Below, one piece after another: positions 1,863-27,401 of a stretch of DNA of 32,000 bases. The notes under the pieces are model-generated. The model had not been told where the DNA came from. It made no database searches and worked only from the letters and a program-made list of their open reading frames with translations. The stretch is from Raphidiopsis brookii D9 (GTDB lineage: Bacteria > Cyanobacteriota > Cyanobacteriia > Cyanobacteriales > Nostocaceae): NCBI GenBank assembly GCA_000175855.1, contig ACYB01000011.1:1-32000 (forward strand), in the 5' to 3' direction. Positions within the stretch are counted from its first letter, which is position 1, and each line of letters starts with the position of its first letter. Made by a program: the position numbers and the translations under genes.

Positions 1863-2428
<566 letters not shown>

Positions 2429-13399: not shown

Positions 13400-14383
13400 T
13401 TATTTCATAAATAATTTGAATAAATATTTACTAGCTTTAGGAAGGAAGTATTTAAGTAAATTGGGGAGTAGGAGCATAAATAAGGAATTTGCGATCAATA
13501 AAACCGAATCACGGGAAAAAACATTGATACTAATTACCAAGTTAGTTCCTACCCAAACCAACCAGCTAATAACAGGTTCTATAAATTTATCTACAGATTT
13601 ATTTTTTATCCTCACCAGTAATTTTTTCAATTGACTGATAATTAGTAAACCCAATGTTCCCAAAACTAAAAATATTATTATCCAACCCAAGGTTGAGATT
13701 AATATTGATAACCACAATGACATTCCGGAGGTGATTTTCCAGGTTATAACAGCTGCGGGGAATATAGCAGACACAAACCAATACACTGAATTCAAATTAC
13801 TTCTTAGACATTTGGTGACTTGTTCTGTTAGCCAATAATGGGAATTGACAATTTTAGAAGCATCCCCATTGCTTATTAAGTTTTGGGAGATTTTTTGGAT
13901 GATATCACCGTCAAATAGTATGGTGCTTTGCATCATAATATTTTCAGTTGATTGATAATAGGAGTTAAAGGTAAAACCACATTGAAATTTAATGGTTTTA
14001 TTGCGGTTCTGACTGGTAAGTATTTTCCAAGTTTTTACTAGAAAGAAATATATTAAAACTGATAACTGGGGATGTGGATAAATATCCGCACTCTTATCAT
14101 AATTCTCATCCCTATCAACAGCGGAATCAAAAATAGAATAGTACCATAAATTCAATAACAGTCCCTTAGGTATATCTAGAGATATACCCTGCAATTTTAA
14201 TTGTGCAATTTTTTCCAAAATAGTTCTATTTAAATAAAAACTATATGCTCCTTCCTCAGCTTTTACTTCTAAGCAACAATTATCCTGTCCATTATTTTGG
14301 GGAAATTGCCAGGGAAATAAAAAACTATAATTCAAACTATAATTCAGGTCTGGTTTTTGGTAATTTTCTTGGAATATATTCAC
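13400..14383 (-). CDS. Hypothetical membrane protein: ~200-aa soluble N-terminal region with a DGDI...His module, then about four predicted TM helices
   Basis: A 327-aa ORF, last of three co-oriented genes. Hydrophobic stretches are SVYWFVSAIFPAAVITW, MSLWLSILISTLGWIIIFLVLGTLGLLII, VISWLVWVGTNLVISINVF and VLLIANSLFMLLLPNLL. I recognise no known domain. Confidence 0.6.
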   Translation of the reverse strand: MNIFQENYQKPDLNYSLNYSFLFPWQFPQNNGQDNCCLEVKAEEGAYSFYLNRTILEKIAQLKLQGISLDIPKGLLLNLWYYSIFDSAVDRDENYDKSADIYPHPQLSVLIYFFLVKTWKILTSQNRNKTIKFQCGFTFNSYYQSTENIMMQSTILFDGDIIQKISQNLISNGDASKIVNSHYWLTEQVTKCLRSNLNSVYWFVSAIFPAAVITWKITSGMSLWLSILISTLGWIIIFLVLGTLGLLIISQLKKLLVRIKNKSVDKFIEPVISWLVWVGTNLVISINVFSRDSVLLIANSLFMLLLPNLLKYFLPKASKYLFKLFMK

Positions 14384-14421
14384 GCATCACCCACCCAAAC
14401 AAACTACTAACATATCTAACT

Positions 14422-15201
14422 TCAAGAAGCAATACCTTTGATAAAATTAATCAAAAAGTCTATCACCTCACGCCATTGTTTTTCTCCAGATACTACTCCA
14501 TCATTATGAACCTTCATAATTAGATCTTTGTCAGACTCCTTCAAACCAAATAACTCGCGGTGATAACGAGTAATAATGTCCCCATCTAATTGTATGATGG
14601 TTTGAGCATAGATGGTATCCACATTTTCACTGGTGACATCACCACCATCCAGTGCTGCTTTCATTTCTGAAACCTTCCGCAAGGTCAATACAAACTTATC
14701 ATCAGTCACTAGTTCGGCAATTTTCTGATAATTTTCTACCTGACTTTCCTGGTCAAAAGGTGAGGGTAAAACTATTTGGGATGCTTTTGTGCCATCGGAA
14801 TTTAAGCGATTTTCATCTATATATTTCAGACGACTACGATACCCCTGCACCACCTGAGCTTTGGGTGATGGAGACTCTAATTCCTTGGTTAAAAAGGTAT
14901 AAATATATTCTCTTTCCAATTGCAAGAATATATTAATATAACGTTCTTCTAACTCGGACACAATGTTCTTACTGTCAAAATAATTCGGTTCACTTATGGC
15001 ATAAATATTATAGTATGATTGCCAGGGGTTGAATTTGGAACCGCTAATATTATTTACAACAATTGTATTTACCTCTAAGCTTGTAATGTCCCTAACTATT
15101 ACGCCCACGGTATCAACAAATTTGCCCAGTAGGTCTTTAGCTCTCCCTGCTGTACCTTGATTTGGCTGAGATTCTAAAGAATTTGAGTCTTTTGCTAACA
15201 T
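14422..15201 (-). CDS. Hypothetical soluble protein, larger paralogue of the upstream 162-aa protein (DGDI...His module)
   Basis: A 259-aa ORF, 26 bp downstream of the previous gene. It shares two sequence blocks with the 162-aa protein (see findings). I recognise no known domain. Confidence 0.6.
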   Translation of the reverse strand: MLAKDSNSLESQPNQGTAGRAKDLLGKFVDTVGVIVRDITSLEVNTIVVNNISGSKFNPWQSYYNIYAISEPNYFDSKNIVSELEERYINIFLQLEREYIYTFLTKELESPSPKAQVVQGYRSRLKYIDENRLNSDGTKASQIVLPSPFDQESQVENYQKIAELVTDDKFVLTLRKVSEMKAALDGGDVTSENVDTIYAQTIIQLDGDIITRYHRELFGLKESDKDLIMKVHNDGVVSGEKQWREVIDFLINFIKGIAS

Positions 15202-15227
15202 AATGATTTCTCTTAGTTGGATAAATG

Positions 15228-15716
15228 CTAGGGAAGTTTTGCTAATTGGGAACTTTGGCTATTTTGACTTTGTTTAACCATTGACATCAAAATCTCACCC
15301 AGTTTTTGCACGCTTTCTATATTTTTTTGAATTATTTCCCGACCTTCTTGAACTTGGCTTAAATGAAATTCCCTCAGTTCTGTATATGGACCACTACCAA
15401 TGAAGCTAGTACCTATTTCATTTCTAATGTCACCATCAACCAGGTTAATACGGGTTACCATTTTGTTCTCTGGTTTGGTACTGGAAGCATTGTCATTATA
15501 TGATGACTCATCAATAACAGAAGTTTCAATTTGTAACTCAATTACATCGGCAAGGACTGTCTTAACAATGTCCATGACACTACTTAAGTTCACACTATTG
15601 CTCTTAAAATCTAAATTATTAAGCTGGCTTTGGAACTTATTTACTTTTGGTGACTCGACCTTTTCAATTTGCACTGTTTGGATTTCTAGGTTGGCGGAGA
15701 AGTTGGTTTCAGGCAT
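15228..15716 (-). CDS. Hypothetical soluble protein (DGDI...His module), first gene of a three-gene operon
   Basis: A 162-aa ORF with an ATG start at 15716-15714. I recognise no known domain. Confidence 0.55.
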   Translation of the reverse strand: MPETNFSANLEIQTVQIEKVESPKVNKFQSQLNNLDFKSNSVNLSSVMDIVKTVLADVIELQIETSVIDESSYNDNASSTKPENKMVTRINLVDGDIRNEIGTSFIGSGPYTELREFHLSQVQEGREIIQKNIESVQKLGEILMSMVKQSQNSQSSQLAKLP

Positions 15717-15942
15717 ACTATGTTTTAGGTACTATGTTTTAGATGCTATGTAAACAGGTGTGGATAGGAATGTATGGGTTTCCATTAGCACCACACCAGG
15801 GCATTATTGACTACTTGAGTTTTTTTTTCCATTGTTTTTAAAAAAACTTAACAATGATAGAATGATAGTAAACAATGATAAAGATGACCAGCAAAAAAGT
15901 ATCGGACTGGTTATGTTCTAAACCCATTGTTATGAGTAGGAG

Positions 15943-16737
15943 ATGATGTATTGGTATTGTGGTCAATTGATAAAATCAACAACACTGACATTAGATGTTG
16001 ATGACCCAGGACTAATTTATGGAGCTACAGTTTTTACAACTATTAGGGTATATCAAAACTGTATAAATTACAAACTAACTAACTGGCATGCTCACTGCCT
16101 TCGTTTAAAATCCACCCTGGAGATATTTGACTGGAAAGAACCTAACTGGGTATCCATACGTCAAGGTGCGGAAATACTCTCACAAAATTTCCCCGTCATC
16201 AGAATCACCATTTTCCCCGATGGTCGAGAATGGATTACAGGTAGATTCCTCCCAGAAAACCTAGCTGAAAGACAAAATCATGGTATAATGGTGGCCGTTG
16301 GCAATGTCAGATGGAACCGTTCCCTACCCCAGCATAAAACAGGTAACTATCTGGCTCCTTGGTTGGCAAAAACTAATGCCCAAAGTCTCAAAGCCCAAGA
16401 AGTAATCTTAGTAGATAACCAGGGAAATTGGCTGGAAACTGCCACTGGTAACCTTTGGGGTTGGAAAGACCACTGCTGGTGGACACCACCTCTCACGGAG
16501 GGAATTCTCCCGGGAATCGCGCGATCGCTCATTATCGGGCACTTGGAAGAAAACCAAATTTCCGTCAAGCAAGAACCATGGACAGTAAACCTGGTCAAAG
16601 ACCTAGAGGCGATCGCCTATAGCAATAGCATAGTAGAGATAGTTCCCATATATATGGTGCAGGATTGTCAAGAGAGGTTAGAATATAATCCTAGACATTC
16701 ATGCTTTTGGGAGATCAAAAGATTATTTTTATCATGA
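15943..16737 (+). CDS. Class IV aminotransferase-fold protein (aminodeoxychorismate lyase / branched-chain aminotransferase family)
   Basis: It has the catalytic-lysine block HKTGNYL, the ETATGNLW block and TPPL.EGILPGIAR, all typical of fold-type IV PLP enzymes. Confidence 0.7.
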   Translation: MMYWYCGQLIKSTTLTLDVDDPGLIYGATVFTTIRVYQNCINYKLTNWHAHCLRLKSTLEIFDWKEPNWVSIRQGAEILSQNFPVIRITIFPDGREWITGRFLPENLAERQNHGIMVAVGNVRWNRSLPQHKTGNYLAPWLAKTNAQSLKAQEVILVDNQGNWLETATGNLWGWKDHCWWTPPLTEGILPGIARSLIIGHLEENQISVKQEPWTVNLVKDLEAIAYSNSIVEIVPIYMVQDCQERLEYNPRHSCFWEIKRLFLS

Positions 16738-16846
16738 CAGGAGTGAAGTTTTGGTATATCTTAAGATAAGTTAACATAATTCTCATAAAATCTCTCTTAT
16801 TTTAGAGAACTTAGACTAACGCCCAAAACTAGGAGGATATACCTCA

Positions 16847-18688
16847 GTGAACAAGAAATGGAGAAATGCGGGGCTGTACGCGCTGTTATTTATCGTAGTA
16901 ATAGCCTTAGGGACAGCGTTTTTTGACAATCAACCGCCACAGGTAGAAACGTGGAGATATAGTGAGTTTATCCAACAGGTGGAACAGGGGCGGGTAGAAA
17001 GAGTTAGCCTCAGTTCAGATCGGACCACAGCGGTAGTGACACCCAAATATGATCCGAACAAAAAGCGGGTCATTCTGGTCAACGACCCAGATTTAATCAA
17101 CACCCTAAGCAGTAAAGGTGTAGATATTGCCGTACTACCCCAAACAGACGACGGATTTTGGTTTAGAGCGCTCAGTAGCCTATTTTTCCCTGTATTGCTG
17201 TTAGTCGGTTTATTTTTCTTGCTACGTCGAGCCCAGAGTGGTCCTGGTAGTCAAGCCATGAACTTTGGGAAATCCAAAGCCAGAGTGCAAATGGAACCCC
17301 AAACCCAAGTTACCTTTGGGGATGTGGCGGGTATTGACCAAGCCAAACTGGAATTAAATGAAGTTGTAGACTTTTTAAAAAATGCCGATCGCTTTACTGC
17401 TGTTGGCGCGAAAATTCCTAAAGGTGTATTATTAGTAGGACCACCAGGGACAGGTAAAACCCTATTAGCACGAGCAGTAGCAGGGGAAGCAGGTGTACCC
17501 TTCTTCAGTATTTCCGGGTCGGAATTTGTGGAAATGTTCGTGGGTGTGGGCGCATCTAGAGTGCGAGACCTGTTTGAACAGGCAAAATCCAATGCTCCTT
17601 GTATAGTCTTCATTGATGAAATTGATGCGGTAGGTCGTCAAAGAGGTGCGGGTTTAGGGGGAGGTAACGATGAAAGGGAACAAACCCTCAACCAATTACT
17701 AACGGAAATGGATGGTTTTGAAGGTAATACGGGAATTATCATTATTGCTGCCACTAACCGTCCAGACGTTCTTGATTCAGCTCTATTGCGTCCTGGTCGC
17801 TTTGATCGTCAAGTAGTAGTAGACCGTCCTGACTACGGTGGAAGGAGTGAAATCCTCAGAGTTCATGCTAGAGGTAAAACCCTATCAAAAGATGTAGACC
17901 TGGATAGAATTGCCCGTCGCACTCCCGGATTCACTGGTGCGGACCTATCCAACCTATTGAACGAAGCGGCAATTTTAGCAGCACGTCGCAACTTGACCGA
18001 AATTTCCATGGATGAAATTAACGATGCTATTGATCGGGTATTAGCAGGTCCAGAAAAGAAAGACCGGGTAATGAGCGAAAAACGCAAAACCTTGGTAGCA
18101 TATCACGAAGCTGGTCATGCTTTAGTTGGTGCATTAATGCCTGATTATGACCCCGTCCAAAAAATTAGCATTATCCCCCGTGGTCGTGCAGGTGGTTTAA
18201 CTTGGTTTACACCCAGTGAAGATCGGATGGATACAGGCTTGTATAGCCGCGCATATCTAGAAAATCAAATGGCCGTTGCGTTGGGTGGTCGTTTAGCAGA
18301 AGAAATTATTTTTGGTGAAGAAGAGGTAACCACTGGTGCTTCCAATGACTTGCAGCAGGTAGCTAGAGTAGCTAGACAAATGATTACTCGTTTTGGTATG
18401 AGCGATCGCTTGGGTCCTGTGGCCTTAGGTCGTCAGCAAGGTAATATGTTCCTAGGTAGAGACATCATGTCCGAACGGGATTTCTCGGAGGAGACTGCTG
18501 CTGCAATTGACGAAGAGGTTCGCAAACTTGTTGATATGGCATACTCCCGTGCCAAGGAAGTACTACTAAATAACCGTCAGATTTTAGACCAAATTGCTCA
18601 AATGCTGATTGATAAAGAAACAGTTGATGCTGACGAATTGCAGGATATCCTATCTAACAATGATGTAAAAACGGCAGCATTTGCCTAA
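16847..18688 (+). CDS. ftsH: ATP-dependent zinc metalloprotease FtsH
   Basis: It has an N-terminal TM, Walker A GPPGTGKT, Walker B VFIDEID, the SRH region, the zinc motif HEAGHA and a second TM. The start is GTG, preceded by AGGAGG about 12 nt upstream. Confidence 0.95.
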
Positions 18689-18696
18689 ACTAGCAA

Positions 18697-18722
18697 TTCA
18701 CCGATCTTATTAGGTCGGTGAA
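18697..18722. terminator. Hairpin between convergent ftsH and the CheA-like gene (possible shared terminator)
   Basis: ttcaccga (18697-18704) pairs with tcggtgaa (18715-18722) around a 10-nt loop. It overlaps the last codons of the minus-strand gene, and the flanking T tracts are weak. Confidence 0.3.
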
Positions 18723-20182
18723 ACTAGATTTAGTTGAGTGATAATTTCCCAGGGGTCTGCTACAAAAACAATAGTACCATCTGAGCCGATAGTCACTCCT
18801 GCAAGACCAGTGGGTTTGGGTAAAATTCCCGGGAATTGTTTAACAAAGATTTCCCGTTCACCCAAAACCTGGTCAACCTGGAGAGCGACTATAATATCAC
18901 TACTACCGGGGTGAAGAATAACTACAGAAGTGTTTTGATGATTGTCCGTTAAGGGAGTGTCAATAATGTGATGATTAAATCCTAACACTTCAGTGAGAGT
19001 GCGTAAAGGCAAAGTCCGTTCTCTCCAGCGGATAAATGGTTTGCCTTTAGCATCCCTGGCCACATCTTTCACAAATATATCCATGGTTTCCATCACATAT
19101 TCCTGATGGAAAGCAATTGTATGGTTATGGAAAACACAGCATATAGCTCCACAAGCAGTCAAACCACTTAAACTAATAGGTAACTTAATAGTCAAAGTTT
19201 TTGGGTGAGCGATAGAGGAATCAGTGCTAATAGTGCCATAAACTTGGTGAAGAATTGGTAGCAAATTTGGGATTAGTCTATGGTAGTTAATTCCCAGAGT
19301 ATTATTAGCTACAGATATAAAAGTTATAGATATCAGATTGTATTTACCCTCGACAGAAACCTGGATAGTGATTTTTCCTGCAGGTGATTTACCAGAAGCA
19401 ATGCGGACTGGAGGATTTTTAGTTTCCTGGGACATAGCATGATGGAGTATATAAATCAGACAATCAGTCAGGTGGGGTAAAATCAGCTTATCCATAGGTG
19501 TTTCTTGTCCTTGGATAACCAAGTCCACCTTTTTGCCATACTTCACTCCATCAATAGTCACCTGATTACGTAATCGTTCACTAGCTCGAGCAAAAGGGAT
19601 CCGTTGTATGGTGACACAACTATGCCGTAATTTTTCCGTGACTTGATCAAACTGCTCACTTAAAGTTTGAATTTCCTCTTGAACAACATCAATATCTAAT
19701 GCGGACTCCACCATGCTGGAAGTACATTCTATAATTTCTTGGTGCAGGGAATAAAAAGAACTAGATGGGTCATTTAACTCTTGTATTCTGATACCGATTT
19801 GGGAAAGGTGTTGAATTTGAGAGAGCAGATGGTCTAAAGATTGGCACAGGTGCTGGTGATTATGCGCTAGGACATGGTGACTGGTCAGCAATTCCCCCAC
19901 TAAATTTGCTATTTCATTTAAATGATCAAAAGAAATATTGACACCCTCCTTACCCCCAAGAGAAACGGGATCTGGTATTTTAGTAACTTGGGGTTTTCCC
20001 GCTGTAGGAGCAGTGGTGACAACCTGCTTTCCTTTTTCCCTGACTATTTGTGATGAGACTTGTTTAGAGCCTGCTAACAAGCTATCTTCCAATTCCTTAA
20101 TCAAATCTTCCAAATTCTCATCTACAGGTTTTTTTTCAGGTTTGTTTCCTGTATCTTCCCAAAAACTATTAGCATCATGCAT
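18710..20182 (-). CDS. CheA-like protein with dimerisation (P3), degenerate HATPase (P4) and CheW-like (P5) regions only; predicted pseudokinase
   Basis: P3-like: ISFDHLNEIANLVGELL. P4-like: KKVDLVIQGQETPMDKLILPHLTDCLIYILHHAMSQE...ISVANNTLGIN...TLTIKLPISL. P5-like: the C-terminal ~140 aa ending GLAGVTIGSDGTIVFVADP. There is no Hpt/P1 or P2, and only 41 bp separates its start from the upstream gene. Confidence 0.75.
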   Translation of the reverse strand: MHDANSFWEDTGNKPEKKPVDENLEDLIKELEDSLLAGSKQVSSQIVREKGKQVVTTAPTAGKPQVTKIPDPVSLGGKEGVNISFDHLNEIANLVGELLTSHHVLAHNHQHLCQSLDHLLSQIQHLSQIGIRIQELNDPSSSFYSLHQEIIECTSSMVESALDIDVVQEEIQTLSEQFDQVTEKLRHSCVTIQRIPFARASERLRNQVTIDGVKYGKKVDLVIQGQETPMDKLILPHLTDCLIYILHHAMSQETKNPPVRIASGKSPAGKITIQVSVEGKYNLISITFISVANNTLGINYHRLIPNLLPILHQVYGTISTDSSIAHPKTLTIKLPISLSGLTACGAICCVFHNHTIAFHQEYVMETMDIFVKDVARDAKGKPFIRWRERTLPLRTLTEVLGFNHHIIDTPLTDNHQNTSVVILHPGSSDIIVALQVDQVLGEREIFVKQFPGILPKPTGLAGVTIGSDGTIVFVADPWEIITQLNLVSPT

Positions 20183-20223
20183 ACTTTTTGTTTTTACCTA
20201 ACCTAAGTTTAAATCAATGGTAT

Positions 20224-21681
20224 TTAGGGAGAGTTAAGAGTTGCTTTCTCAATTGAGGAGTCTATATCAGCTATTATAGGGGTAATATCATCCAGAGATT
20301 GCCTAGCTTGTTGTGCAAGTTTCGTGCTAGTAATCACTCGTTGTTTGCTCCCTTCCATAGTTAGTATGAGATGGTTAGCCTCCTTGTCAATATTTCCAAA
20401 CATCTCTTGAATCTGCTTAACAGATTTAGCTGTCTTATCTGCTAGTTGGGATATTTCATTAGCCATAATTGCCAGTCCTCTTCCTCCTATACCAGATTTT
20501 GTTGCTTCAATACTGATATTTAATGTTAACAAATTAGTACGAGAGGATAATTGGGATGCTAAGGTAGCTAAGGAATTAATTTCTTGACAAGTCTGGGCCA
20601 AGTATTTTAGTTGAGGTTCGGTTTTGGTTAAGGTTTCTCCCACTACCAAAATTTCTGCCACCATGTTTTCTAAAACTTCACTAACTTGACTATTAATTTC
20701 ATTAACGCGATGAACCGAGGTTTGAGCCGCTTTACCTATTTTTCTGACTTCCTCTAGGGATTGCGTCATAGTTACTACAGAGTTAAGAGTGACTGCTAAC
20801 TCTTTGTCCTGACCGGAGTTTTGTTCATGAAAAGCACGTCGAACAGATTGATGTGCCAGACCACCCATGGAAGCAGCAGTGATTCCACTTAGGATTCCAG
20901 CACCTAGAGGTACTCCCCAATTGACATTTCTCATCCATTCACGTTGGGTGGGTGATATCCATGAACTACTTCCAAAGCCAATCACAGCAGCTGTTAGGGC
21001 TGAGGTAAAACCTACTACTAGTGCGGTAGACCACTGCTGTTTTTTTAAGATAGCATTTAAGGAAGAATTTTCCCCAACGGGAACATTCTCTGGTATTGGG
21101 TCTTGGGTACTTAAGGATTTATCTTCTAGTAACCTTTGGTTATGGTTACCAGCCAATTCATCATGGGTATCTATGTTTTCATCTATTTCTACCGGTTCCA
21201 AAGATGAAACACTTCTTAAATCATCAAATTCATCAAAATTAGCCAGGAATTCAATTTTGTCCATATCGTTATAACTATACTTTTTATCTGATTCTAAAGG
21301 TTGTGGTGGATGATTTTCTTCTATGTCCGAAAACAATTGTTCAACACTACTGGGATCTGCAACGAAAGCACCATCAGAACCACTCTTTAAAGCAGAGCTG
21401 TAAGTGACTAGCTCCTGTTCAATCACTTGTAATTTTTGACGAGCTGAACCTAGTATTTCTTGATTATTTGTTAAACCCAATACCCGATCATATTCCCCTT
21501 TGGCAACCTTAAATTTTCCTAAAGCATAGTATATATCACCGCGCAACAGGTGAGAATTAGGGTCTTCTCCTAGAATGCTGACTACTCGGTCTATTAGAGT
21601 AGCAGCACCTTGATAATCACCTCTTATGTAAGCTGTTAACGCCTGCTCATATTTGGAATTTGGCTCATCTGTATTTATCAT
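20224..21681 (-). CDS. Methyl-accepting chemotaxis protein-like transducer with an N-terminal TPR region
   Basis: The signalling-domain hairpin tip reads SSRTNLLTLNISIEATKSGIGGRGLAIMANEISQLADKT. There are two TM helices around residues 217-276, and TPR-like repeats in residues ~10-90. Confidence 0.85.
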   Translation of the reverse strand: MINTDEPNSKYEQALTAYIRGDYQGAATLIDRVVSILGEDPNSHLLRGDIYYALGKFKVAKGEYDRVLGLTNNQEILGSARQKLQVIEQELVTYSSALKSGSDGAFVADPSSVEQLFSDIEENHPPQPLESDKKYSYNDMDKIEFLANFDEFDDLRSVSSLEPVEIDENIDTHDELAGNHNQRLLEDKSLSTQDPIPENVPVGENSSLNAILKKQQWSTALVVGFTSALTAAVIGFGSSSWISPTQREWMRNVNWGVPLGAGILSGITAASMGGLAHQSVRRAFHEQNSGQDKELAVTLNSVVTMTQSLEEVRKIGKAAQTSVHRVNEINSQVSEVLENMVAEILVVGETLTKTEPQLKYLAQTCQEINSLATLASQLSSRTNLLTLNISIEATKSGIGGRGLAIMANEISQLADKTAKSVKQIQEMFGNIDKEANHLILTMEGSKQRVITSTKLAQQARQSLDDITPIIADIDSSIEKATLNSP

Positions 21682-22262
21682 TTCCCCTCCTGATTAAATT
21701 TGACCATACTTGCCCATTTATCACTTTGCAGAATTACTTTTTGATTAATCAGCTTTACGGACTTGTTATTTTCACTATCTAGCCATTCCCCCTGCACAAA
21801 AGGAACTATGTCATCTGGCACATCGGTTGGAGCTACTACGGATTCCATATCTAACCAAAACGTAGCACATATCTGGTCTACCGCTAAACCAATTATGGCA
21901 TCTTCGTACTCAGTCGTAATAACTGATACTTGTGATCTACGTTCTATATTTAAGGGTATCATTTCTCCCATAAACTTTCCTAAGTCTACTACCCAAATTA
22001 ACTGACCTCGCCAATTGACTACTCCTAAAACCAATGGGGAGGTGCTAGGAATGGGTATGATTTGATGGGGAGTGATTTCTATTACCTCCTTGATGCCAAT
22101 TAAGGGTAGGGCAAATTCCTCCGGTGAGGACAAATAAAACCTCAGATACAACTCGTCTTTCAAGGATGGGGATTGATTGAGACCTTTAGTATCAGTATTT
22201 TCTGGTAATTTGGCATGTCGGTTCTGGCGAGGGTCTATTACAAAGTCCGGTTTGCTGACCAT
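21678..22262 (-). CDS. CheW-like coupling protein
   Basis: It has a CheW-domain pattern: YLRFYLSSPEEFALPLIGIKEVIEI....IPIP.....LGVVNWRGQLIWVVDLGKF. Its stop overlaps the MCP start by 4 bp (ATGA). Confidence 0.85.
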   Translation of the reverse strand: MVSKPDFVIDPRQNRHAKLPENTDTKGLNQSPSLKDELYLRFYLSSPEEFALPLIGIKEVIEITPHQIIPIPSTSPLVLGVVNWRGQLIWVVDLGKFMGEMIPLNIERRSQVSVITTEYEDAIIGLAVDQICATFWLDMESVVAPTDVPDDIVPFVQGEWLDSENNKSVKLINQKVILQSDKWASMVKFNQEGK

Positions 22263-22298
22263 ATTTTCAGGAGTTTTCCAAGTGGGTTGTAGCCCATT

Positions 22299-23306
22299 CT
22301 AACTTTCTTTTTCTGTTGGAGTTAGAAACGGTTGTCGAATAACTATGGAAGCATTTTCTACTATTGCTATGCTACCACCAGGAAAAGGATCACTTTGAGA
22401 ACGGTTGGGAGCGTTAATTAAATCCCTGATTTTTTCAATATGATCAAAATTGGGGGTTTGTGGTAACGCTTCCTGCAATATTTGACGAATCACCCGGCGT
22501 TGAATAGCTAAGGGCTGTTGTTTTAATAAATCACGATTCAGACGCAAATCACCGTCTTCACACTTTGTTGAGGCTTGTAACCGCAACTGGTGAGCTATTT
22601 GTTCTAAATACTCTACTTCTGCTCGTAACAACTCTGCTGTGTGAGATAAATGGGATTCCACCTGGGGGTTGAAGTTTGCTGCAAGATAGGGGAGTAATTG
22701 CTGACGAATACGATTTCGCGGATACTGTAAGTTTTGATTTGTGCTATCCACCCAAACTGGTAAGTCAAGGTCTTGGCAAAATTTTCCAGTTTGTTCCCGG
22801 GTAATCTCCAACAGAGGACGAACCAACATCGTCTTCTCCCCTAAAGATCTTTGCCAAGTTAAGGACTGTAAACCATCAGCACCAGTCCCCCGAATCAGAT
22901 TGTATATTAGGGTCTCCGCTCGATCACTACTGGTGTGTCCCGTAACGATGTATTTATAACCATAATCTTCAGCAATTTCCCTAAACACTCTATATCGCCA
23001 ATTCCTAGCATCACCTTCGCTATTTACCGGGTCAATGGCAATTTGTAAGTGGAATGGTAAATCCCAACTAGTTGCTAGATTTTTTACATGATCCGCGTTC
23101 GCTTGGGAATCTTCTCGCCAACGATGATCACAATGGGCGATCGCCAGTTTCCACTTCCATTTAACTTGTAAATCCACTAACAACTTAATTAAACACAGTG
23201 AGTCCTGTCCACCGGATAAGGCAACCAATAAATGTTCATGAGGTGCAAATAAATGACGATGCCGGATTGTGCGATGTATTTTAGCGTGTAAAGAAGTCCA
23301 TACCAT
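22299..23306 (-). CDS. tilS: tRNA(Ile)-lysidine synthase
   Basis: It carries the PP-loop motif LVALSGGQDSLCL and has the typical TilS length and layout. Confidence 0.9.
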   Translation of the reverse strand: MVWTSLHAKIHRTIRHRHLFAPHEHLLVALSGGQDSLCLIKLLVDLQVKWKWKLAIAHCDHRWREDSQANADHVKNLATSWDLPFHLQIAIDPVNSEGDARNWRYRVFREIAEDYGYKYIVTGHTSSDRAETLIYNLIRGTGADGLQSLTWQRSLGEKTMLVRPLLEITREQTGKFCQDLDLPVWVDSTNQNLQYPRNRIRQQLLPYLAANFNPQVESHLSHTAELLRAEVEYLEQIAHQLRLQASTKCEDGDLRLNRDLLKQQPLAIQRRVIRQILQEALPQTPNFDHIEKIRDLINAPNRSQSDPFPGGSIAIVENASIVIRQPFLTPTEKES

Positions 23307-23313
23307 GTATTAA

Positions 23314-24585
23314 CTAGATTGGGTTATCCTTGGGATTAACTAGTTTTAATAGTTTCTGTTTAATTTGGGCATCGAAAACTTCCCACTTAATCTTAGCGTA
23401 TGCAGAATTCTCATTACCACCAGACAGAAATCCCATGGGAATCTCAAACCCACCAGCACCAGTACGTCCACCACCAAAAAATCTTCCCGTGCTATCTTGT
23501 CCAAAAGCTTCTTTAATAAACTCATCCGGATCTAAGGTCAACTTTGTAGTTCTCAAGGATCCAATCACCACTTCTAACTCATCATCCTCATCATGTACTA
23601 TTCCATATACCATGGCAGTATGCACATTTTCTTCTGTCACCAAAAAGTCCGCCGCTTGAGGTATGGCATCCCGATCATCATACCGTAAATAACCAACACC
23701 AGCTATAGAAAAGTTATTCTGAACAATGCGATTTTTCAGAGAACGCTCAATTACATCCATTACGCGCTTAGAACGATTAGCTTGTAAAATGGCATTAAGT
23801 AGTTGAGCATCATAGAACTTGCTTAGGTATGCAGCAGCCATAAAGTCTTCTTCCTGGGCTTGCATCAACCGATTAGTATCAGATCTTAACCCATGCATCA
23901 ATGCTGTAGCACATTTCACATGCTGTCCCATGCTACTATCCAGGGTGAGTAGACCCGACTGTAAATACTGGGTAAAAATAGTTGCTGTTGCTCGCACATA
24001 GGGACGAACATCAGTAAACTCGGCTTTCAGTTCCCCCTGTAAACTATGATGATCTACCAAGGTAATCAAAGGGATTCCAGCTTGCTGAAGAGCAGATGTT
24101 AAAGCAGAAGTAGTTCCTTGATTATCAATCAAGACGAAACCCTGATAAGAAACCAAATCTTTGGTTTTAATGCTTTGTGCTGTACAGCGTTGGGCAGGTA
24201 AGGCAGTCAATTTCACTAAAGCGATATTTTCCTGATGGCTGAGAGTGCCCGCATAAATAATTTCACACTTGATGTCATACTGTTGAGCAATGAGCTGATA
24301 TGCCCAAGCACTAGAGAGAGCATCCGGGTCAGGAAAGTCTTGGAGGATAACCAAATGGCGCTCGTGTCGGTGGGCGAGAAGAGTTTTTTGTAATTCTTCT
24401 GACTTTTGAGTGGCCAGGGAACTAGGACGGGAAACATTAGCAATGCTCCCATCACCATTAGATAGTAGCACCTGAGTTCGATGCAGTGGAGGAATGTCAA
24501 CCGTAGTCTCTGTTTCTATATCTTCCCCCTTTGGCTCTGTAGTCAACGTGAAAGTCCCAATTTGAGAAACACTAGAATTCAACAT
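23314..24585 (-). CDS. DHH/DHHA1-family phosphoesterase (NrnA-like)
   Basis: DHH motifs are present: DFPDPDALSS, VLIDNQG, LVDHHS and GLRSDTN. The C-terminal region is DHHA1-like (GGGRTGAGGF). Confidence 0.8.
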   Translation of the reverse strand: MLNSSVSQIGTFTLTTEPKGEDIETETTVDIPPLHRTQVLLSNGDGSIANVSRPSSLATQKSEELQKTLLAHRHERHLVILQDFPDPDALSSAWAYQLIAQQYDIKCEIIYAGTLSHQENIALVKLTALPAQRCTAQSIKTKDLVSYQGFVLIDNQGTTSALTSALQQAGIPLITLVDHHSLQGELKAEFTDVRPYVRATATIFTQYLQSGLLTLDSSMGQHVKCATALMHGLRSDTNRLMQAQEEDFMAAAYLSKFYDAQLLNAILQANRSKRVMDVIERSLKNRIVQNNFSIAGVGYLRYDDRDAIPQAADFLVTEENVHTAMVYGIVHDEDDELEVVIGSLRTTKLTLDPDEFIKEAFGQDSTGRFFGGGRTGAGGFEIPMGFLSGGNENSAYAKIKWEVFDAQIKQKLLKLVNPKDNPI

Positions 24586-24679
24586 GGTGCGGACAGTTCT
24601 AATTGTTATGGAATTATATATCTATATGATCTGTTAATCCTTTTCGCCCAAACATCCCCATTCCCAGTTAGTTAATTGG

Positions 24680-25177
24680 TTAAAGTCCTATAACATATTT
24701 TTGCCACTCCTGATGAAGTCCACTTTTCAGATGTTTCGTTACCTCAAAGTAGAGACTACTATGAGGTTGGCGCGGCGGATACCTTAATGGCATCCGGGCT
24801 TCTTGGGGGGTGCGACAGCCTTTTTTGACGTTGCAACGTACACAAGCAGTAACAATATTCTCCCAAGTGTCACCTCCACCACGAGATCGGGGTATTACAT
24901 GGTCTAAGGTTAGATCATCGCCGGTACAACCACAGTATTGACAACTGTGACCATCACGGTGAAAGATGTTTCGACGTGTAAGTGGGATTTCTTTGTATGG
25001 AACGCGGACATAATGACGCAACCGAATTACGGTTGGCAGTGGAAAATCGGAACAGAGGAATTTGCCATTGTGTTCCACATGTTCTGCTTTGCCTTTAATC
25101 AACAAAACGATGGCACGTCGCCAAGTGGTAATGTTGAGTGGTTCGTAGGAGGCGTTTAGGACTAAAACCTTCCCCAT
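24680..25177 (-). CDS. HNH endonuclease-domain protein
   Basis: CQYCG....LTLDHVIPRSRGGGDTWENIVTACVRCNVKKG is an HNH (beta-beta-alpha-metal) motif with a CxxC...CxxC zinc pair. Confidence 0.85.
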   Translation of the reverse strand: MGKVLVLNASYEPLNITTWRRAIVLLIKGKAEHVEHNGKFLCSDFPLPTVIRLRHYVRVPYKEIPLTRRNIFHRDGHSCQYCGCTGDDLTLDHVIPRSRGGGDTWENIVTACVRCNVKKGCRTPQEARMPLRYPPRQPHSSLYFEVTKHLKSGLHQEWQKYVIGL

Positions 25178-25322
25178 TGATTTTAGCTCAAGGTATTAGT
25201 TTCGGACATTCTAACACAAATATACCTTTTTAGACAGATGAGATCGCCCAAATGGTAAAAAAGGATGGTTAAATAGATGTTAGAATTTCACATCTCCCCA
25301 CTTTAAAAAGTATCGGGAAAAT

Positions 25323-26486
25323 ATGAAAATGCTTACTCCGCAAAATACTTACGCTTGGTTTTCACAACGTGCCTGGGTAGAGATTGATTTAGGAGCTTTG
25401 TCTAATAATGTGAAGCAGTTAGTAGGGTTTTTATCCCCGGGAACCCAATTGATGGCTGTGGTCAAGGCCGATGCTTACGGACACGGTGCTATTACTGTAG
25501 CTACAACTGTTTTAGCGGCGGGGGCCACCTGGCTAGGAGTAGCTACAGTTACCGAGGGTATTCAATTACGGGAGGCTGGAATTAAGGCCCCAATCCTGAT
25601 TTTGGGTGCCACCTATACACCAGAACAAATTCATGCTATCACCTCTTGGCAACTGGAACCTACTTTATGTAGCCCAGGACAAGCTTTAATATTTTCTCAG
25701 TTCTTAAATTCTATTGACCATAATTATAAGTTACCGGTTCATATTAAATTGGATACAGGAATGTCAAGACTGGGTGCTGAATGGCAACAAGCAGGTCAAT
25801 TTGCTCAGTTTGTTCAAGAACTACCTCGGTTACATATTGCCAGTGTTTATTCTCACTTTGCCACAGCGGATAGTCCTGATACCACAATTATGGAACAACA
25901 GCATGGAAGATTCCAACAGGCGATCGCTCAAATTAGAGCAAGAGGCATAAAAATACCAAGTTTACACTTAGCCAATTCTGCTGCTACCCTAGGGGACAAA
26001 GAATTACACTATGACATGGTGCGTGCGGGACTAGCCATTTATGGACTTTATCCAGCTGCTCACCAGAGAAATTATTTGCAACTGCGCCCCGCACTACAGG
26101 TAAAGGCCAGAATCACACATATAAAAACAATCAGTAAAGGAACAGGGGTGAGTTATGGTCACAAATTTATTGCTCCTAGAGAGATGCGAATTGGAGTAGT
26201 TGGTATTGGTTATGCTGATGGGGTGCCCAGGGGTCTTTCTAACCAAATGGAGGTGTTGGTGCAGGGTCACAGAGTTCAGCAGATTGGTATGATTACCATG
26301 GACCAACTGATGATAGATATTAGTCCTTTAGTGGAAGTACAGGAAGGGGAAATAGTCACTCTGTTGGGGGAACAGGGAGAAGAGAAAATCACAGCAGATG
26401 ATTGGGCAAATCAATTGAATACTATTTCCTGGGAAATCATTTGCGGATTCAAACATCGTCTACCCCGGGTGGCCATAGAAATTTGA
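25323..26486 (+). CDS. alr: Alanine racemase
   Basis: It has the PLP-lysine block AVVKADAYGHG, RAWVEIDLGAL at the N-terminus, and a VSYG block in the C-terminal beta domain. Confidence 0.9.
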   Translation: MKMLTPQNTYAWFSQRAWVEIDLGALSNNVKQLVGFLSPGTQLMAVVKADAYGHGAITVATTVLAAGATWLGVATVTEGIQLREAGIKAPILILGATYTPEQIHAITSWQLEPTLCSPGQALIFSQFLNSIDHNYKLPVHIKLDTGMSRLGAEWQQAGQFAQFVQELPRLHIASVYSHFATADSPDTTIMEQQHGRFQQAIAQIRARGIKIPSLHLANSAATLGDKELHYDMVRAGLAIYGLYPAAHQRNYLQLRPALQVKARITHIKTISKGTGVSYGHKFIAPREMRIGVVGIGYADGVPRGLSNQMEVLVQGHRVQQIGMITMDQLMIDISPLVEVQEGEIVTLLGEQGEEKITADDWANQLNTISWEIICGFKHRLPRVAIEI

Positions 26487-26515
26487 TCGAAAAGAAAAAA
26501 AATAGCAGATCCCTC

Positions 26516-26544
26516 TTGCCAAGGAAAAGTTGTTGTGATAGTAT
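26516..26544 (+). promoter_or_regulatory. Putative promoter of tRNA-Leu
   Basis: TTGCCA (26516-26521), a 17-nt spacer, then TAGTAT (26539-26544). The predicted start is a few nt before the mature tRNA 5' end at 26556. Confidence 0.4.
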
Positions 26545-26555
26545 TAGATACTAAT

Positions 26556-26637
26556 GCGGATGTGGCGGAATTGGCAGACGCGCTAGATTTAGGTTCTAGT
26601 TCCGACAGGAGTGAAGGTTCAAGTCCTTTCATCCGCA
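26556..26637 (+). tRNA. tRNA-Leu, anticodon UAG
   Basis: Folded by hand. The acceptor stem is GCGGATG/CATCCGC with discriminator A. The anticodon stem is CTAGA/TCTAG with loop TTTAGGT (anticodon TAG). It has a long variable arm (TCC-GACA-GGA) and a T arm GAAGG-TTCAAGT-CCTTT. CCA is not encoded. Confidence 0.9.
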
Positions 26638-26706
26638 TTATATAGGCCCGTGCACAATCTATTCAGTGCTTACAAGGTAATAGAAACATAACGGTTTAGT
26701 AGTTTT

Positions 26707-27327
26707 ATGGATAATATACAACGTCCATCAATTCTCAAAGTCGGTGAAACCTATACCTTTCGGAAATACTTCGATTTAAAATTTGCCCCTGGTGATATTT
26801 TAAGAGAATTAGGTGCAAATTTAATTAAGACTGGGATTGATCTACCAACGAGTAAGAATGAGATTACTAGATTGGAGGATTTAAAACAGAGATTAGAAGA
26901 GGCAATTCAAATAGTCAATCTCACCAGTGAAGCAGCTAGAAGAGAGGTTTTAATAGCTCCAATTTTATTAGAAATTGCCCACATTACCCGGTCCACCATT
27001 AATATAGAATACCCTATAGAAATCAACCAATTTTTGCGGGGAGATTTAGACTATTACCTAAAATCTGAACACCAAATATTGGTTGTGGAAGCCAAACAAG
27101 CGGATTTAACTAGAGGTTTTACTCAACTTGCTGTGGAACTAATTGCCCTAAATGAATGGACATGGAGGACCGAACCGATATTGTATGGAGCAGTAACCAC
27201 AGGAGAAATTTGGCAATTTGGTAGTTTTCAACCTGAGAGCAAACTGGTTACCCAGGATCTAATGCTATATCGCGTCCCTATGGATTTGGAAATACTCATG
27301 AAAGTATTAGTGGGCATTTTAACCTAA
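26707..27327 (+). CDS. Hypothetical protein with a PD-(D/E)xK nuclease-like core (HsdR-N-terminal-like)
   Basis: RGDLDYYLKSEHQILVVEAKQADLTRGFTQLAVEL fits the D...(E)xK...Q pattern of restriction-endonuclease-fold domains. The rest is unrecognised. Confidence 0.45.
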   Translation: MDNIQRPSILKVGETYTFRKYFDLKFAPGDILRELGANLIKTGIDLPTSKNEITRLEDLKQRLEEAIQIVNLTSEAARREVLIAPILLEIAHITRSTINIEYPIEINQFLRGDLDYYLKSEHQILVVEAKQADLTRGFTQLAVELIALNEWTWRTEPILYGAVTTGEIWQFGSFQPESKLVTQDLMLYRVPMDLEILMKVLVGILT

Positions 27328-27335
27328 TTATAGCC

Positions 27336-27368: not shown

Positions 27369-27401
27369 CTACCTATATTTAAACTACATTTAAATAACAG
27401 G

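What the first reader, a model, noticed from the sequence alone, without database searches (positions are those of the whole stretch)
18710..22262. Stripped-down chemosensory module (CheW, TPR-MCP, CheA-like) with no response regulator, adaptation enzymes or phosphotransfer domain
Three tightly packed minus-strand genes encode the three proteins that build a chemoreceptor array. The CheW stop overlaps the MCP start by 4 bp, and the next gap is 41 bp. Nothing that would make it a signalling pathway is encoded here: no CheY or PatA-type regulator, no CheR or CheB, no Hpt. The flanks are tilS on one side and convergent ftsH on the other. From my recollection, the characterised cyanobacterial Che-like loci (Synechocystis tax/pil clusters, Nostoc hmp and ptx) carry CheY-type genes and a hybrid CheA. 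This locus looks different. Combined with the degenerate kinase (next finding), it suggests an array used as a scaffold or sensor, with an output other than phosphorelay.
Basis: partly seen in the sequence, partly recalled or inferred. Interest (0 to 1): 0.7.

Follow-up and report, generated by a model that had tools for sequence, protein, structure and literature searches.

The report
Kinase-dead remnant of hmp chemosensory locus
This Cylindrospermopsis/Raphidiopsis locus is the cut-down descendant of the cyanobacterial hmp pilus-control system: it has lost its response regulators, HmpF, the phosphotransfer domain and the kinase ATP site, yet the three remaining array-building proteins are still kept by selection, which suggests a role that does not use phosphorylation.

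Summary
Three packed minus-strand genes encode a CheW (194 aa), a TPR-MCP (485 aa) and a CheA-like protein (490 aa). No REC, PATAN, Hpt, CheR or CheB is encoded anywhere in the 32-kb window (Cylindrospermopsis raciborskii CENA303).

The locus is not a separate class. It is the in-situ orthologue of hmpC-hmpD-hmpE (the Hmp/Tax3 type-IV-pilus system). In Nostoc punctiforme the order is tilS | hmpF | hmpA | hmpB | hmpC | hmpD | hmpE. Here tilS is 36 bp from hmpC, so hmpF-hmpA-hmpB are deleted.

- HmpD has lost HAMP and the outer part of its hairpin.
- HmpE has lost Hpt, REC, the G2/F boxes and the ATP lid, and its N and G1 boxes are mutated.
- A published family table places four Cylindrospermopsis/Raphidiopsis genomes only in the HmpC family.
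- The short CheA form has no counterpart outside this genus among the best 150 hits of a search of 1.84 billion representatives.

The genes are not pseudogenes. dN/dS is 0.2-0.5 (p down to 1e-10), all indels are in frame, and the predicted folds are intact.

Best reading: a kinase-dead receptor-CheW-CheA(P3-P5) complex kept for a role without phosphorelay. That role is unknown. The absence of CheR/CheB is ordinary for these systems.

The parts
21678..22262 (-). hmpC orthologue: CheW-type coupling protein, 194 aa
   Evidence: Pfam CheW 2e-21. 48% identical over its full length to N. punctiforme HmpC, and it shares the MVSKPDF N-terminus. 44% identical to Snowella HmpC. The R. brookii D9 sequence listed in the HmpC family of PMC7002697 is identical to the window protein. 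dN/dS of the CheW domain is 0.25.
20224..21681 (-). Trimmed hmpD orthologue: TPR - acidic linker - two hydrophobic segments - short MCP hairpin, 485 aa, no HAMP
   Evidence: Pfam TPR_2 plus MCPsignal. Collinear with HmpD proteins, but it lacks ~200 aa (HAMP and the N-arm extension) and the last ~55 aa of the C-arm. AF2 gives a confident TPR and hairpin. dN/dS 0.21-0.35.
21382..21663 (-). TPR domain of the MCP (aa 7-100)
   Evidence: 52% identical to the N. punctiforme HmpD TPR, a higher identity than the signalling domain shows to any HmpD (39-46%). pLDDT ~90. dN/dS 0.20.
20851..21033 (-). Two hydrophobic segments (aa ~217-240 and ~255-277) joined by a short loop: a membrane hairpin
   Evidence: Kyte-Doolittle peaks of 1.76 and 1.37. 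Aligns to the TM region of HmpD. Low AF2 confidence.
20236..20808 (-). MCP signalling hairpin (aa 292-482), turn at aa 396-402
   Evidence: AF2 helices 292-395 and 397-482, pLDDT 80-90. The tip keeps 72% of HmpD-family invariant residues against 31-43% in the arms. The tip carries substitutions at otherwise invariant positions, e.g. GRGF->GRGL and DEVRQLA->NEISQLA.
20183..20223 (.). 41-bp gap between the MCP and the CheA-like gene
   Evidence: Sequence. It is too short to hold any remnant of the ~900 N-terminal residues of HmpE, and tblastn finds none.
18710..20182 (-). Trimmed hmpE orthologue: CheA-like pseudokinase (linker motif - P3 - degenerate P4 - P5), 490 aa; no Hpt, no REC
   Evidence: Collinear with residues 956-1456 of a 1616-aa Hpt...REC hybrid CheA. 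Residues 2-42 match that protein's internal residues 638-678. In the exhaustive search the only other short form is P0001, plus one fragment. AF2 with Foldseek matches CheA P3-P4-P5 in 6s1k_A, E 5e-24.
19604..19930 (-). P3 dimerisation hairpin (aa 85-193)
   Evidence: AF2 helices 85-135 and 142-193. Weak H-kinase_dim hit. A ~35-aa deletion relative to the extended P3 of HmpE-type proteins.
19163..19603 (-). Degenerate P4 (aa 194-340): ATP-binding site dismantled
   Evidence: N box NNAIAHGIE->HHAMSQETK. G1 DDGAGI->ANNTLGI. A ~47-57-aa deletion removes the F box, the G2 box (GRGVGM) and the lid. No Pfam HATPase_c hit. The degenerate motifs are invariant in six strains. dN/dS 0.27.
18725..19162 (-). 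P5 / CheW-like domain (aa 341-486)
   Evidence: Pfam CheW 6e-12. The C-terminal subdomain is almost invariant among strains. dN/dS 0.29.
22263..22298 (.). 36-bp tilS-hmpC junction: the place where hmpF-hmpA-hmpB (~4 kb) lie in N. punctiforme
   Evidence: N. punctiforme order and coordinates, tilS | hmpF | hmpA | hmpB | hmpC | hmpD | hmpE, from PMC7002697 Supplementary File 2. Window sequence. No remnant by tblastn.
22299..23306 (-). tilS, the conserved synteny anchor of the hmp locus
   Evidence: Pfam ATP_bind_3 plus TilS. 65% identical to the N. punctiforme TilS encoded directly next to hmpF.

Best explanation
The three genes are the in-situ remnant of the hmp locus. Hmp is the 'type 1', Tfp-class chemotaxis-like system (Hmp in Nostoc, Tax3/PilG-L in Synechocystis) that in other cyanobacteria controls type IV pili through HmpF.

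In the Cylindrospermopsis/Raphidiopsis lineage:
- A deletion between tilS and hmpC removed hmpF, hmpA (PatA-type regulator) and hmpB (CheY).
- HmpD lost its HAMP region and, on both arms, the membrane-proximal part of its hairpin.
- HmpE lost everything except a short linker motif, P3, a gutted P4 and P5.

The module therefore cannot bind ATP in the normal way, cannot autophosphorylate (no P1), and has no receiver to phosphorylate. These points are shown by sequence.

The three proteins have nevertheless been kept intact under purifying selection throughout the diversification of the genus. The parts best preserved are the TPR domain, the receptor tip, CheW and P5, which are the parts that make protein-protein contacts in a core signalling unit.

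I infer that they still assemble into a membrane-anchored receptor-CheW-CheA(P3-P5) complex that acts by binding, by localisation or by a conformational change passed to a partner (most plausibly through the TPR domain), not by phosphotransfer. Assembly and output are inferred, not shown.

Transcription probably now comes from the DHH-tilS unit or from a promoter inside the 3' end of tilS. This too is inferred.
For: Orthology and synteny:
- N. punctiforme has tilS immediately before hmpF-hmpA-hmpB-hmpC-hmpD-hmpE. The window has tilS, 36 bp, then hmpC'-hmpD'-hmpE'.
- CheW is 48% identical to Npun HmpC over its full length. The MCP TPR is 52% identical to the Npun HmpD TPR.
- The MCP is collinear with HmpD proteins that sit in hmpF/hmpA/hmpB/hmpC loci.
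- The CheA-like protein is collinear with the P3-P5 part of 1000-2500-aa hybrid CheAs, and its N-terminus matches an internal linker motif of those proteins.
- Its nearest relative is Cuspidothrix HmpE/HmpD.

Loss of catalysis and partners:
- No Hpt, HATPase_c or REC hits. N and G1 boxes are mutated; F, G2 and the lid are deleted.
- No remnants in the window.
- CS-505, ITEP-A1, CR12 and D9 appear only in the HmpC family of the six Hmp family tables.

Maintained function:
- dN/dS is 0.21-0.52 against 0.01-0.2 in flanking genes. The test of omega<1 gives p from 4e-3 to 1.6e-10.
- Every indel among 6-7 strains is in frame, and the degenerate motifs are invariant.
- The same three ORFs are found in all assemblies examined.
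- The AF2 model of the CheA-like protein matches CheA in the E. coli core signalling unit (6s1k_A, E 5e-24, TMt 0.70).
- The MCP hairpin and TPR are modelled with confidence.
- The receptor tip keeps 72% of family-invariant residues against 31-43% in the arms.
Against: - Selection is relaxed: omega is 3-10 times that of neighbouring genes.
- About half of the residues invariant in the HmpD/HmpE families are substituted. These include tip positions that I recall as important for kinase control and trimer packing in model receptors (Phe->Leu in GRGF; my own knowledge). Array assembly is therefore not assured.
- The obvious partner, HmpF, appears to be absent from the genus, so no output partner can be named.
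- I could not inventory the whole genome. Another CheA, Hpt or CheY, or a divergent HmpF, may exist.
- One assembly (L011) shows split MCP and CheA-like ORFs. I attribute this to assembly indels because other genes there are split too, but real decay in that strain is not excluded.
- There are no expression data.
Confidence: 0.55

Rival explanations
1. Evolutionary relic. After the loss of hormogonium-type motility and of hmpF/hmpA/hmpB in a genome-reduced planktonic lineage, the remaining three genes have no function and are decaying slowly. Their apparent constraint is residual or incidental.
For: - All catalytic, phosphotransfer and output parts are gone.
- Divergence from other Hmp proteins is very fast: HmpC is 48% identical here against 90% between Nostoc and Nodularia, and about half of the family invariants are lost.
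- omega is several times that of neighbours.
- The genus has reduced genomes (PMC2821919, PMC5913679).
- Split ORFs in L011.
Against: - omega is significantly below 1 in all three genes and in every folded domain.
- Across pairwise dS of ~0.1-0.17 there is not one stop or frameshift in the good assemblies. The roughly ten or more indel differences seen among the strains are all multiples of three (my count from the alignment).
- The hairpin was shortened on both arms, and the CheA-like protein still models as P3-P4-P5. Truncation that preserves the fold is not what random decay gives.
- A genome under reduction would be expected to have purged 3.5 kb of useless DNA.
Confidence: 0.2
2. Split system working in trans. 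The module is an accessory receptor/adaptor layer that feeds a genuine CheA, Hpt protein and CheY encoded elsewhere in the genome, as R. sphaeroides CheA3 works with CheA4 or as bipartite CheAs do. A phosphorelay would then still be the output.
For: - Precedents exist for a degenerate P4 in CheA3 and for bipartite CheA proteins (PMC10782961).
- Nostocales usually carry several che-like loci (PMC5913679).
- P3 and P5 are retained, so heterodimers or mixed arrays are conceivable.
- I could not inventory the genome.
Against: - The protein lacks P1, so it has nothing to be phosphorylated in trans. CheA3, in contrast, keeps P1.
- The cognate HmpA and HmpB families are not found in four genomes of the genus.
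- The word-index search named no second CheA from this genus, though that search has limited sensitivity.
- The receptor tip carries substitutions at otherwise invariant positions, which would hamper coupling to a foreign kinase.
Confidence: 0.15
3. A separate, previously unclassified minimal chemosensory class unrelated to the characterised cyanobacterial loci.
For: The domain content differs from every characterised cyanobacterial locus.
Against: - Synteny with tilS, gene order, the TPR of HmpD, HmpE-specific motifs and the best hits all point to descent from hmp.
- Among the best 150 hits of a search of 1.84 billion representatives, the short form occurs only in one cluster of one genus.
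Confidence: 0.03

Closest known systems
Hmp chemotaxis-like system of Nostoc punctiforme (hmpF, hmpA-E); Tax3/PilG-H-I-J-L of Synechocystis; 'type 1'/Tfp-class systems
   Same: - Same chromosomal place, next to tilS.
- Same order hmpC-hmpD-hmpE.
- N-terminal TPR plus two membrane segments in the MCP.
- The CheA-like protein derives from the P3-P4-P5 part of the multi-Hpt hybrid kinase.
- No CheR/CheB in either.

   Different: - hmpF, hmpA (PatA_N-REC) and hmpB (CheY) are deleted.
- The MCP lacks HAMP and the outer hairpin: 485 aa against 800-980.
- The kinase lacks Hpt, REC and a working ATP site: 490 aa against 1100-2500.
- The sequences are far more diverged than between distant cyanobacteria.

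In Nostoc the system moves HmpF on and off the pilus motors (PMC12288463, PMC9239167). That output cannot exist here in the same form.
Cereibacter (Rhodobacter) sphaeroides CheA3
   Same: A CheA-family protein whose HATPase domain has lost helices and the Mg/ATP-binding residues. It does not autophosphorylate, yet it stays in the array through P5 (PMC10782961).
   Different: CheA3 keeps a functional P1 that is phosphorylated by CheA4, which is encoded in the same operon. Here there is no P1, no partner kinase in the locus, and no receivers.
Canonical CheA P3-P4-P5 core (T. maritima CheA-delta289, E. coli core signalling unit)
   Same: Same three-domain fold by AF2/Foldseek (6s1k_A E 5e-24; 1b3q_A E 3e-23) and by sequence (8c5v_A E 2.7e-14).
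   Different: P4 lacks the lid and the F and G2 boxes, and its N and G1 boxes are mutated. P3 is the long cyanobacterial type.
Non-kinase array components with a CheW-like domain (e.g. Vibrio ParP; Myxococcus FrzB)
   Same: These are precedents for CheW-fold proteins that integrate into receptor arrays, or act on them, for structural or localisation purposes rather than catalysis (PMC5706961, PMC6952110; abstracts listed).
   Different: They are not homologous beyond the CheW fold. They act alongside an active CheA, whereas here no active kinase is encoded in the module.

Membership tests
Hmp / Tax3 (type 1, Tfp-class) cyanobacterial chemotaxis-like locus | Gene order CheW (hmpC) - TPR-MCP (hmpD) - CheA (hmpE), located next to tilS as in N. 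punctiforme | tested here: met
   Window order and 36-bp tilS junction. N. punctiforme table in PMC7002697 Supplementary File 2. TilS 65% and HmpC 48% identical.
Hmp / Tax3 (type 1, Tfp-class) cyanobacterial chemotaxis-like locus | Closest homologues of each protein are HmpC/HmpD/HmpE proteins | tested here: met
   No tree was built.
Hmp / Tax3 (type 1, Tfp-class) cyanobacterial chemotaxis-like locus | Two response regulators (PatA-type HmpA and CheY-type HmpB) | tested here: not met
   None in the 32-kb window. Four genomes of the genus are absent from the HmpA and HmpB family tables. The whole genome was not scanned by me.
Hmp / Tax3 (type 1, Tfp-class) cyanobacterial chemotaxis-like locus | HmpF (PF28019) as output protein | tested here: not met
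   No match in the window or in related loci. Absent from the HmpF family table for the four genomes. My own genome scan was mis-aimed.
Hmp / Tax3 (type 1, Tfp-class) cyanobacterial chemotaxis-like locus | Hybrid CheA with Hpt domain(s) and a C-terminal receiver | tested here: not met
   No Hpt or Response_reg hit. The alignment to P0104 covers only its residues 956-1456 plus 638-678.
Hmp / Tax3 (type 1, Tfp-class) cyanobacterial chemotaxis-like locus | MCP with HAMP between the membrane segments and the signalling domain | tested here: not met
   No HAMP hit. ~200 aa are missing in the alignment to 23 HmpD proteins.
CheA histidine kinase (core P1, P3, P4, P5 as defined in PMC10782961) | P1/Hpt with the phospho-accepting His | tested here: not met
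.
CheA histidine kinase (core P1, P3, P4, P5 as defined in PMC10782961) | P4 HATPase_c with N, G1, F and G2 boxes | tested here: not met
   No HATPase_c hit. Motifs are mutated or deleted, and this is invariant across strains.
CheA histidine kinase (core P1, P3, P4, P5 as defined in PMC10782961) | P3 dimerisation hairpin and P5 CheW-like domain | tested here: met
   AF2 helices 85-193 and the P5 barrels. Foldseek to CheA P3-P4-P5. Pfam CheW 6e-12.
Chemoreceptor core signalling unit (MCP + CheW + CheA P5 forming arrays) | All three structural components encoded | tested here: met
Chemoreceptor core signalling unit (MCP + CheW + CheA P5 forming arrays) | Physical assembly of receptor tip, CheW and P5 | not testable with these tools
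   No multimer prediction or experiment was available. The tip keeps 72% of family invariants but has substitutions at otherwise invariant positions.
Pseudogene / decaying remnant | Frameshifts or stops, and dN/dS near 1 | tested here: not met
   ORFs are intact in all good assemblies. Indels are in frame only. omega is 0.2-0.5 with p down to 1e-10. The L011 splits are probably assembly errors.
CheA3-type degenerate CheA working with a partner kinase | Retained P1, and a partner CheA in the same operon | tested here: not met

The most novel reading that the evidence does not exclude
A chemoreceptor-CheW-pseudoCheA complex has been kept by selection as a phosphorylation-independent device in a bloom-forming toxic cyanobacterium. 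It would be an array, or a smaller complex, whose TPR-bearing receptor still senses something (in Nostoc the Hmp input may be proton motive force). It would pass this on by binding or releasing a so far unknown partner. This would be the first natural example of a chemosensory core unit whose output is not a phosphorelay.
Probability: 0.3. Interest if true: 0.7.

Novelty: new variant of a known kind. Interest (0 to 1): 0.5.

Why it matters
A recent survey of thousands of CheA proteins treats P1, P3, P4 and P5 as present in every CheA (PMC10782961). Here nature has removed everything needed for signalling by phosphorylation from the most widely conserved cyanobacterial chemotaxis-like system. 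It has kept only the parts that build the receptor-CheW-CheA lattice, and has kept them under selection.

If the complex still forms, it is a natural test of whether chemosensory arrays can have structural or binding-based roles. It also offers a handle on what the TPR domain of HmpD does.

It documents, step by step, how a motility-control system is dismantled in a planktonic lineage with a reduced genome.

Practically, the CheA-like protein is currently named 'CheW' or 'histidine kinase' in the source databases, and one related sequence is named 'ChpA sensor histidine kinase/response regulator'. All three names are misleading.

Tried and rejected
(1) A chimeric HmpF+HmpA+HmpB+HmpE query in the word-index protein search, meant to reveal Cylindrospermopsis orthologues.

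(2) The single genome-contig scan with the HmpF of locus L002. I had assumed L002 was a Nostocales locus. It turned out to be Snowella, so only Chroococcales relatives were returned and the presence test for Cylindrospermopsis failed. The question was answered in part from the family tables of PMC7002697 instead.

(3) The promoter/terminator scan of 18400-25400 gave fewer promoter-like sites than the shuffles and nothing between tilS and cheW. It gives no operon boundary.

(4) The split MCP and CheA-like ORFs in L011 were considered as evidence of pseudogenisation. I rejected this as unreliable because several unrelated neighbouring genes in that assembly are also split or shortened.

(5) Literature searches for any description of chemotaxis, Hmp or pilus genes in Cylindrospermopsis/Raphidiopsis found nothing relevant. 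The genome paper does not mention them. The key HmpF paper (PMC8000345) is not held.

(6) A functional link to ftsH or tilS was considered and not pursued. The tilS adjacency is ancestral to the hmp locus, and in several strains a 3.2-kb cassette separates tilS from cheW. The ftsH adjacency is conserved only within the genus.

Full report
**1. What is there**

The window is from Cylindrospermopsis raciborskii CENA303. The MCP is 100% identical to a protein of that strain.

The first stop overlaps the second start in ATGA. The next gap is 41 bp.

Pfam gives:
- a CheW domain (2e-21) for the first protein;
- TPR_2 plus MCPsignal (2e-21), and no HAMP, for the second;
- only a CheW-like domain (6e-12) and a sub-threshold H-kinase_dim match for the third.

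NCBIfam CheA models align only to residues ~160-304 of the third protein.

tilS lies 36 bp upstream. ftsH is convergent, 21 bp downstream. None of the other ORFs of 100 aa or more in the 32 kb encodes a receiver, PATAN, Hpt, CheR or CheB domain.

**2. Where it comes from**

The nearest relatives of the MCP outside the genus are ~800-aa cyanobacterial TPR-HAMP-MCP proteins. These sit in loci of the form hmpF (PF28019) | PatA_N-REC | REC | CheW | MCP, and in Cuspidothrix next to a 1581-aa Hpt...HATPase...CheW...REC kinase.

An exhaustive phmmer search of 1.84 billion representatives with the CheA-like protein found one other short protein (94% identical, same genus) and one fragment. All the other best 150 hits are 600-2500 aa long (most of them 1000-2500 aa) and 33-43% identical. 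The four that I scanned are hybrid CheAs of the Hpt/HATPase/CheW/REC type.

BLASTP against one of them shows three things (P0104: Hpt 9-106, H-kinase_dim 979-1035, HATPase_c 1176-1314, CheW 1321-1457, REC 1492-1603):
- The window protein is collinear with residues 956-1456.
- It has one ~35-aa deletion in the long P3 and one ~47-57-aa deletion inside P4.
- Its first 40 residues match an internal linker motif at 638-678.

The decisive piece is published. Supplementary File 2 of Springstein et al. 2020 (PMC7002697) tabulates the N. punctiforme locus as tilS (7354842-7355837, +), hmpF (-), hmpA, hmpB, hmpC, hmpD (977 aa), hmpE (1865 aa). The tilS adjacency in the window is therefore ancestral. 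Window TilS is 65% identical to the Npun protein, window CheW is 48% identical to HmpC over its full length and shares the N-terminus MVSKPDF, and the MCP TPR is 52% identical to that of HmpD.

The locus is thus the in-situ orthologue of hmpC-hmpD-hmpE. A ~4-kb deletion has removed hmpF, hmpA and hmpB and left 36 bp. tblastn with HmpA, HmpB, HmpF and full-length HmpE finds no remnant of the lost parts in the window or in related loci.

**3. What has been lost**

Against 60 HmpE-type proteins:
- the N box NNAIAHGIE reads HHAMSQETK;
- G1 DDGAGI reads ANNTLGI;
- the F box, the G2 box (GRGVGM) and the lid are deleted;
- of 209 columns conserved at 95% or more, 97 are kept, 23 deleted and 89 substituted.

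The alignment to E. coli CheA shows the same changes.

Against 23 HmpD proteins, the MCP lacks about 200 residues (HAMP and the N-arm extension) and the last ~55 residues of the C-arm. Of 192 invariant columns, 59 are kept, 71 deleted and 62 substituted. The tip motif [36 protein letters not shown] has become SRTNLLTLNISIEATKSGIGGRGLAIMANEISQLAD.

The same supplementary file lists the members of the six Hmp families in 364 genomes. C. raciborskii CS-505 and ITEP-A1, Cylindrospermopsis sp. CR12 and R. brookii D9 each occur once, in the HmpC family only. Nostoc PCC 7120 occurs in all six families, and the two Nodularia assemblies occur 12 times.

Their absence from the HmpD and HmpE families is explained by the divergence shown above. 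Their absence from the HmpF, HmpA and HmpB families is the best available evidence that these genes are gone from the genomes and not only from the locus. It rests on another group's clustering, and I could not repeat it on a whole genome.

The absence of CheR/CheB is not informative. None of the hmp-type loci examined has them.

**4. Dead or alive?**

The three genes occur with the same order and nearly the same lengths in all Cylindrospermopsis/Raphidiopsis assemblies retrieved.

Nei-Gojobori dN/dS between four divergent strains:

| Gene | dN/dS |
|---|---|
| CheW | 0.23-0.44 |
| MCP | 0.21-0.35 |
| CheA-like | 0.24-0.52 |
| ftsH (flank) | 0.01-0.03 |
| DHH gene (flank) | 0.02-0.06 |
| tilS (flank) | 0.09-0.19 |

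A binomial test of omega<1 gives p from 4e-3 (CheW, the short gene) to 1.6e-10. Every folded region has omega of 0.2-0.3, including the gutted P4 (0.27), the receptor tip (0.21) and the TPR (0.20). The exceptions are P3 (0.58) and the membrane segments (0.48).

All indel differences among 6-7 strains are multiples of three and lie in linkers. The degenerate N/G1 motifs are invariant.

AlphaFold2 models:
- The CheA-like protein models as a long P3 hairpin, an alpha/beta P4 remnant and a P5 double barrel (mean pLDDT 72.9). Foldseek's best match is CheA in the E. coli core signalling unit (6s1k_A, E 5e-24, target-normalised TM-score 0.70).
- The MCP models with a confident TPR and a confident two-helix hairpin of about 100 and 85 residues.

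The hairpin has been shortened on both arms, which is how receptor length classes differ naturally (my own knowledge). The tip retains 72% of family-invariant residues against 31-43% in the arms.

These are not pseudogenes. Constraint is relaxed but clearly present.

One assembly (L011) has split MCP and CheA-like ORFs. Other genes in that stretch are also split or shortened, so I attribute this to assembly indels.

**5. How it most likely works**

*Shown.* The module cannot autophosphorylate or transfer phosphate. It has no P1, no ATP lid or G2 box, mutated N and G1 boxes, no receiver of its own, and no receiver genes nearby. [quoted passage not shown]

*Inferred.* What has been kept is the set of parts that make contacts in a core signalling unit, plus the TPR domain. 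So the proteins probably still form a membrane-anchored receptor-CheW-CheA(P3-P5) complex, and its effect is exerted by binding or localisation. In Synechocystis, HmpF co-precipitates with PilJ (the HmpD orthologue), PilB and a twitching-motility protein (Slr0161) (PMC7002697 main text). Receptor-level protein contacts with the pilus machinery therefore exist in the ancestral system. With HmpF apparently gone, the present partner is unknown.

*Transcription (inferred).* The deletion removed the hmpA promoter region. Only 36 bp separate tilS from cheW, with no promoter- or terminator-like site. Transcription is therefore probably read-through from the DHH-tilS unit, or starts inside the tilS 3' end. 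In strains that carry a 3.2-kb cassette between tilS and cheW, ~235-270 bp of the tilS 3' end and cheW 5' start are duplicated in front of cheW.

*Rivals.*
- A functionless relic (0.2). Purifying selection and in-frame indels argue against it.
- A module that works in trans with a kinase, Hpt protein and CheY encoded elsewhere (0.15). The lack of P1 and the absence of the HmpA/HmpB families argue against it, but it is not excluded without a genome inventory.
- An unrelated new class (0.03). Contradicted by synteny and homology.

**6. Comparison with what is known**

The locus works least like, but descends from, the Hmp/Tax3 system. It fails the membership tests for regulators, HmpF, hybrid CheA and HAMP. 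I therefore file it as a derived variant, not a member in function.

The nearest mechanistic precedent is R. sphaeroides CheA3, whose P4 is also degenerate and inactive (PMC10782961). CheA3, however, keeps P1 and has CheA4 beside it.

The CheA survey states that HATPase_c, P3, P5 and (after correction) Hpt are found in all CheA homologues. This protein would not be counted as a CheA at all. In the source databases it is named 'CheW' or 'histidine kinase'.

I found no paper that describes this locus.

**7. Verdict**

'No phosphorelay from this module' is right. 'A different kind of locus' is wrong.
- This is a new variant of a known kind and is restricted to one genus.
- Interest is moderate (0.5). 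It is a natural kinase-dead chemosensory core under selection, which is unusual and testable. But its function is unknown, the lineage is hard to manipulate genetically, and the ordinary explanation (a slowly eroding remnant with some residual role) is not far away.

Noticed in passing
window ~15854-15942 (junction); L012 14240-15064: The window lacks an ~825-bp stretch that other strains have between the class-IV aminotransferase gene and the 162-aa ORF. That stretch encodes a 261-aa protein without Pfam hits. It is a strain-specific deletion in CENA303.
   Followed up: partly
L006-L009 (e.g. L008 4473-7683); corresponds to window 22158-22516: In several C. raciborskii strains a ~3.2-kb cassette (two methyltransferases and a GT4 glycosyltransferase) sits between tilS and cheW. 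It is flanked by a ~235-270-bp direct duplication of the tilS 3' end and cheW 5' start, which leaves a 42-aa cheW 5' fragment ORF.
   Followed up: partly
window 10617-29264 compared with L012: Synonymous divergence between CENA303 and the L012 strain is mosaic: 0.0025 in aspS, 0.03-0.05 in the FAD oxidase gene, ftsH and the DHH gene, but ~0.11 over tilS-cheW-MCP. This points to a recombination tract across the che module.
   Followed up: no
window 1863-2351 (-): A 162-aa ORF matches only the C-terminal part (profile positions 155-258 of 260) of the photosynthetic reaction-centre protein family (psbA/psbD type). It may be a truncated copy or a mis-started gene.
   Followed up: no
window 2894-3352 (+) and 3165-3815 (-): An ORF with an Effector-associated domain 1 (EAD1, 1.2e-18) overlaps, on the opposite strand, an ORF with an FGE-sulfatase domain (8e-48). 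A Dam-type D12 methyltransferase gene lies at 741-1550.
   Followed up: no
window 13400-15716 (-): Three consecutive conserved ORFs (327, 259 and 162 aa) have no Pfam match and no significant NCBIfam match. Their dN/dS of 0.07-0.25 among strains marks them as real genes of unknown function.
   Followed up: no
L011 (GCA_002321935.1), whole locus: Many genes in this 3.48-Mb single-contig assembly are split or shortened relative to other strains: the MCP, the CheA-like gene, the aminotransferase gene, the 261-aa ORF and the 327/334-aa ORF. Indel errors from long reads are likely. Annotation of this genome should be treated with care.
   Followed up: partly
PMC7002697 Supplementary File 2: Other planktonic or symbiotic Nostocales also show incomplete Hmp family membership. 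Dolichospermum circinale AWQC131C is listed in 3 of the 6 families and 'Nostoc azollae' 0708 in 5 of 6. Erosion of the hmp system may therefore not be unique to Cylindrospermopsis.
   Followed up: no
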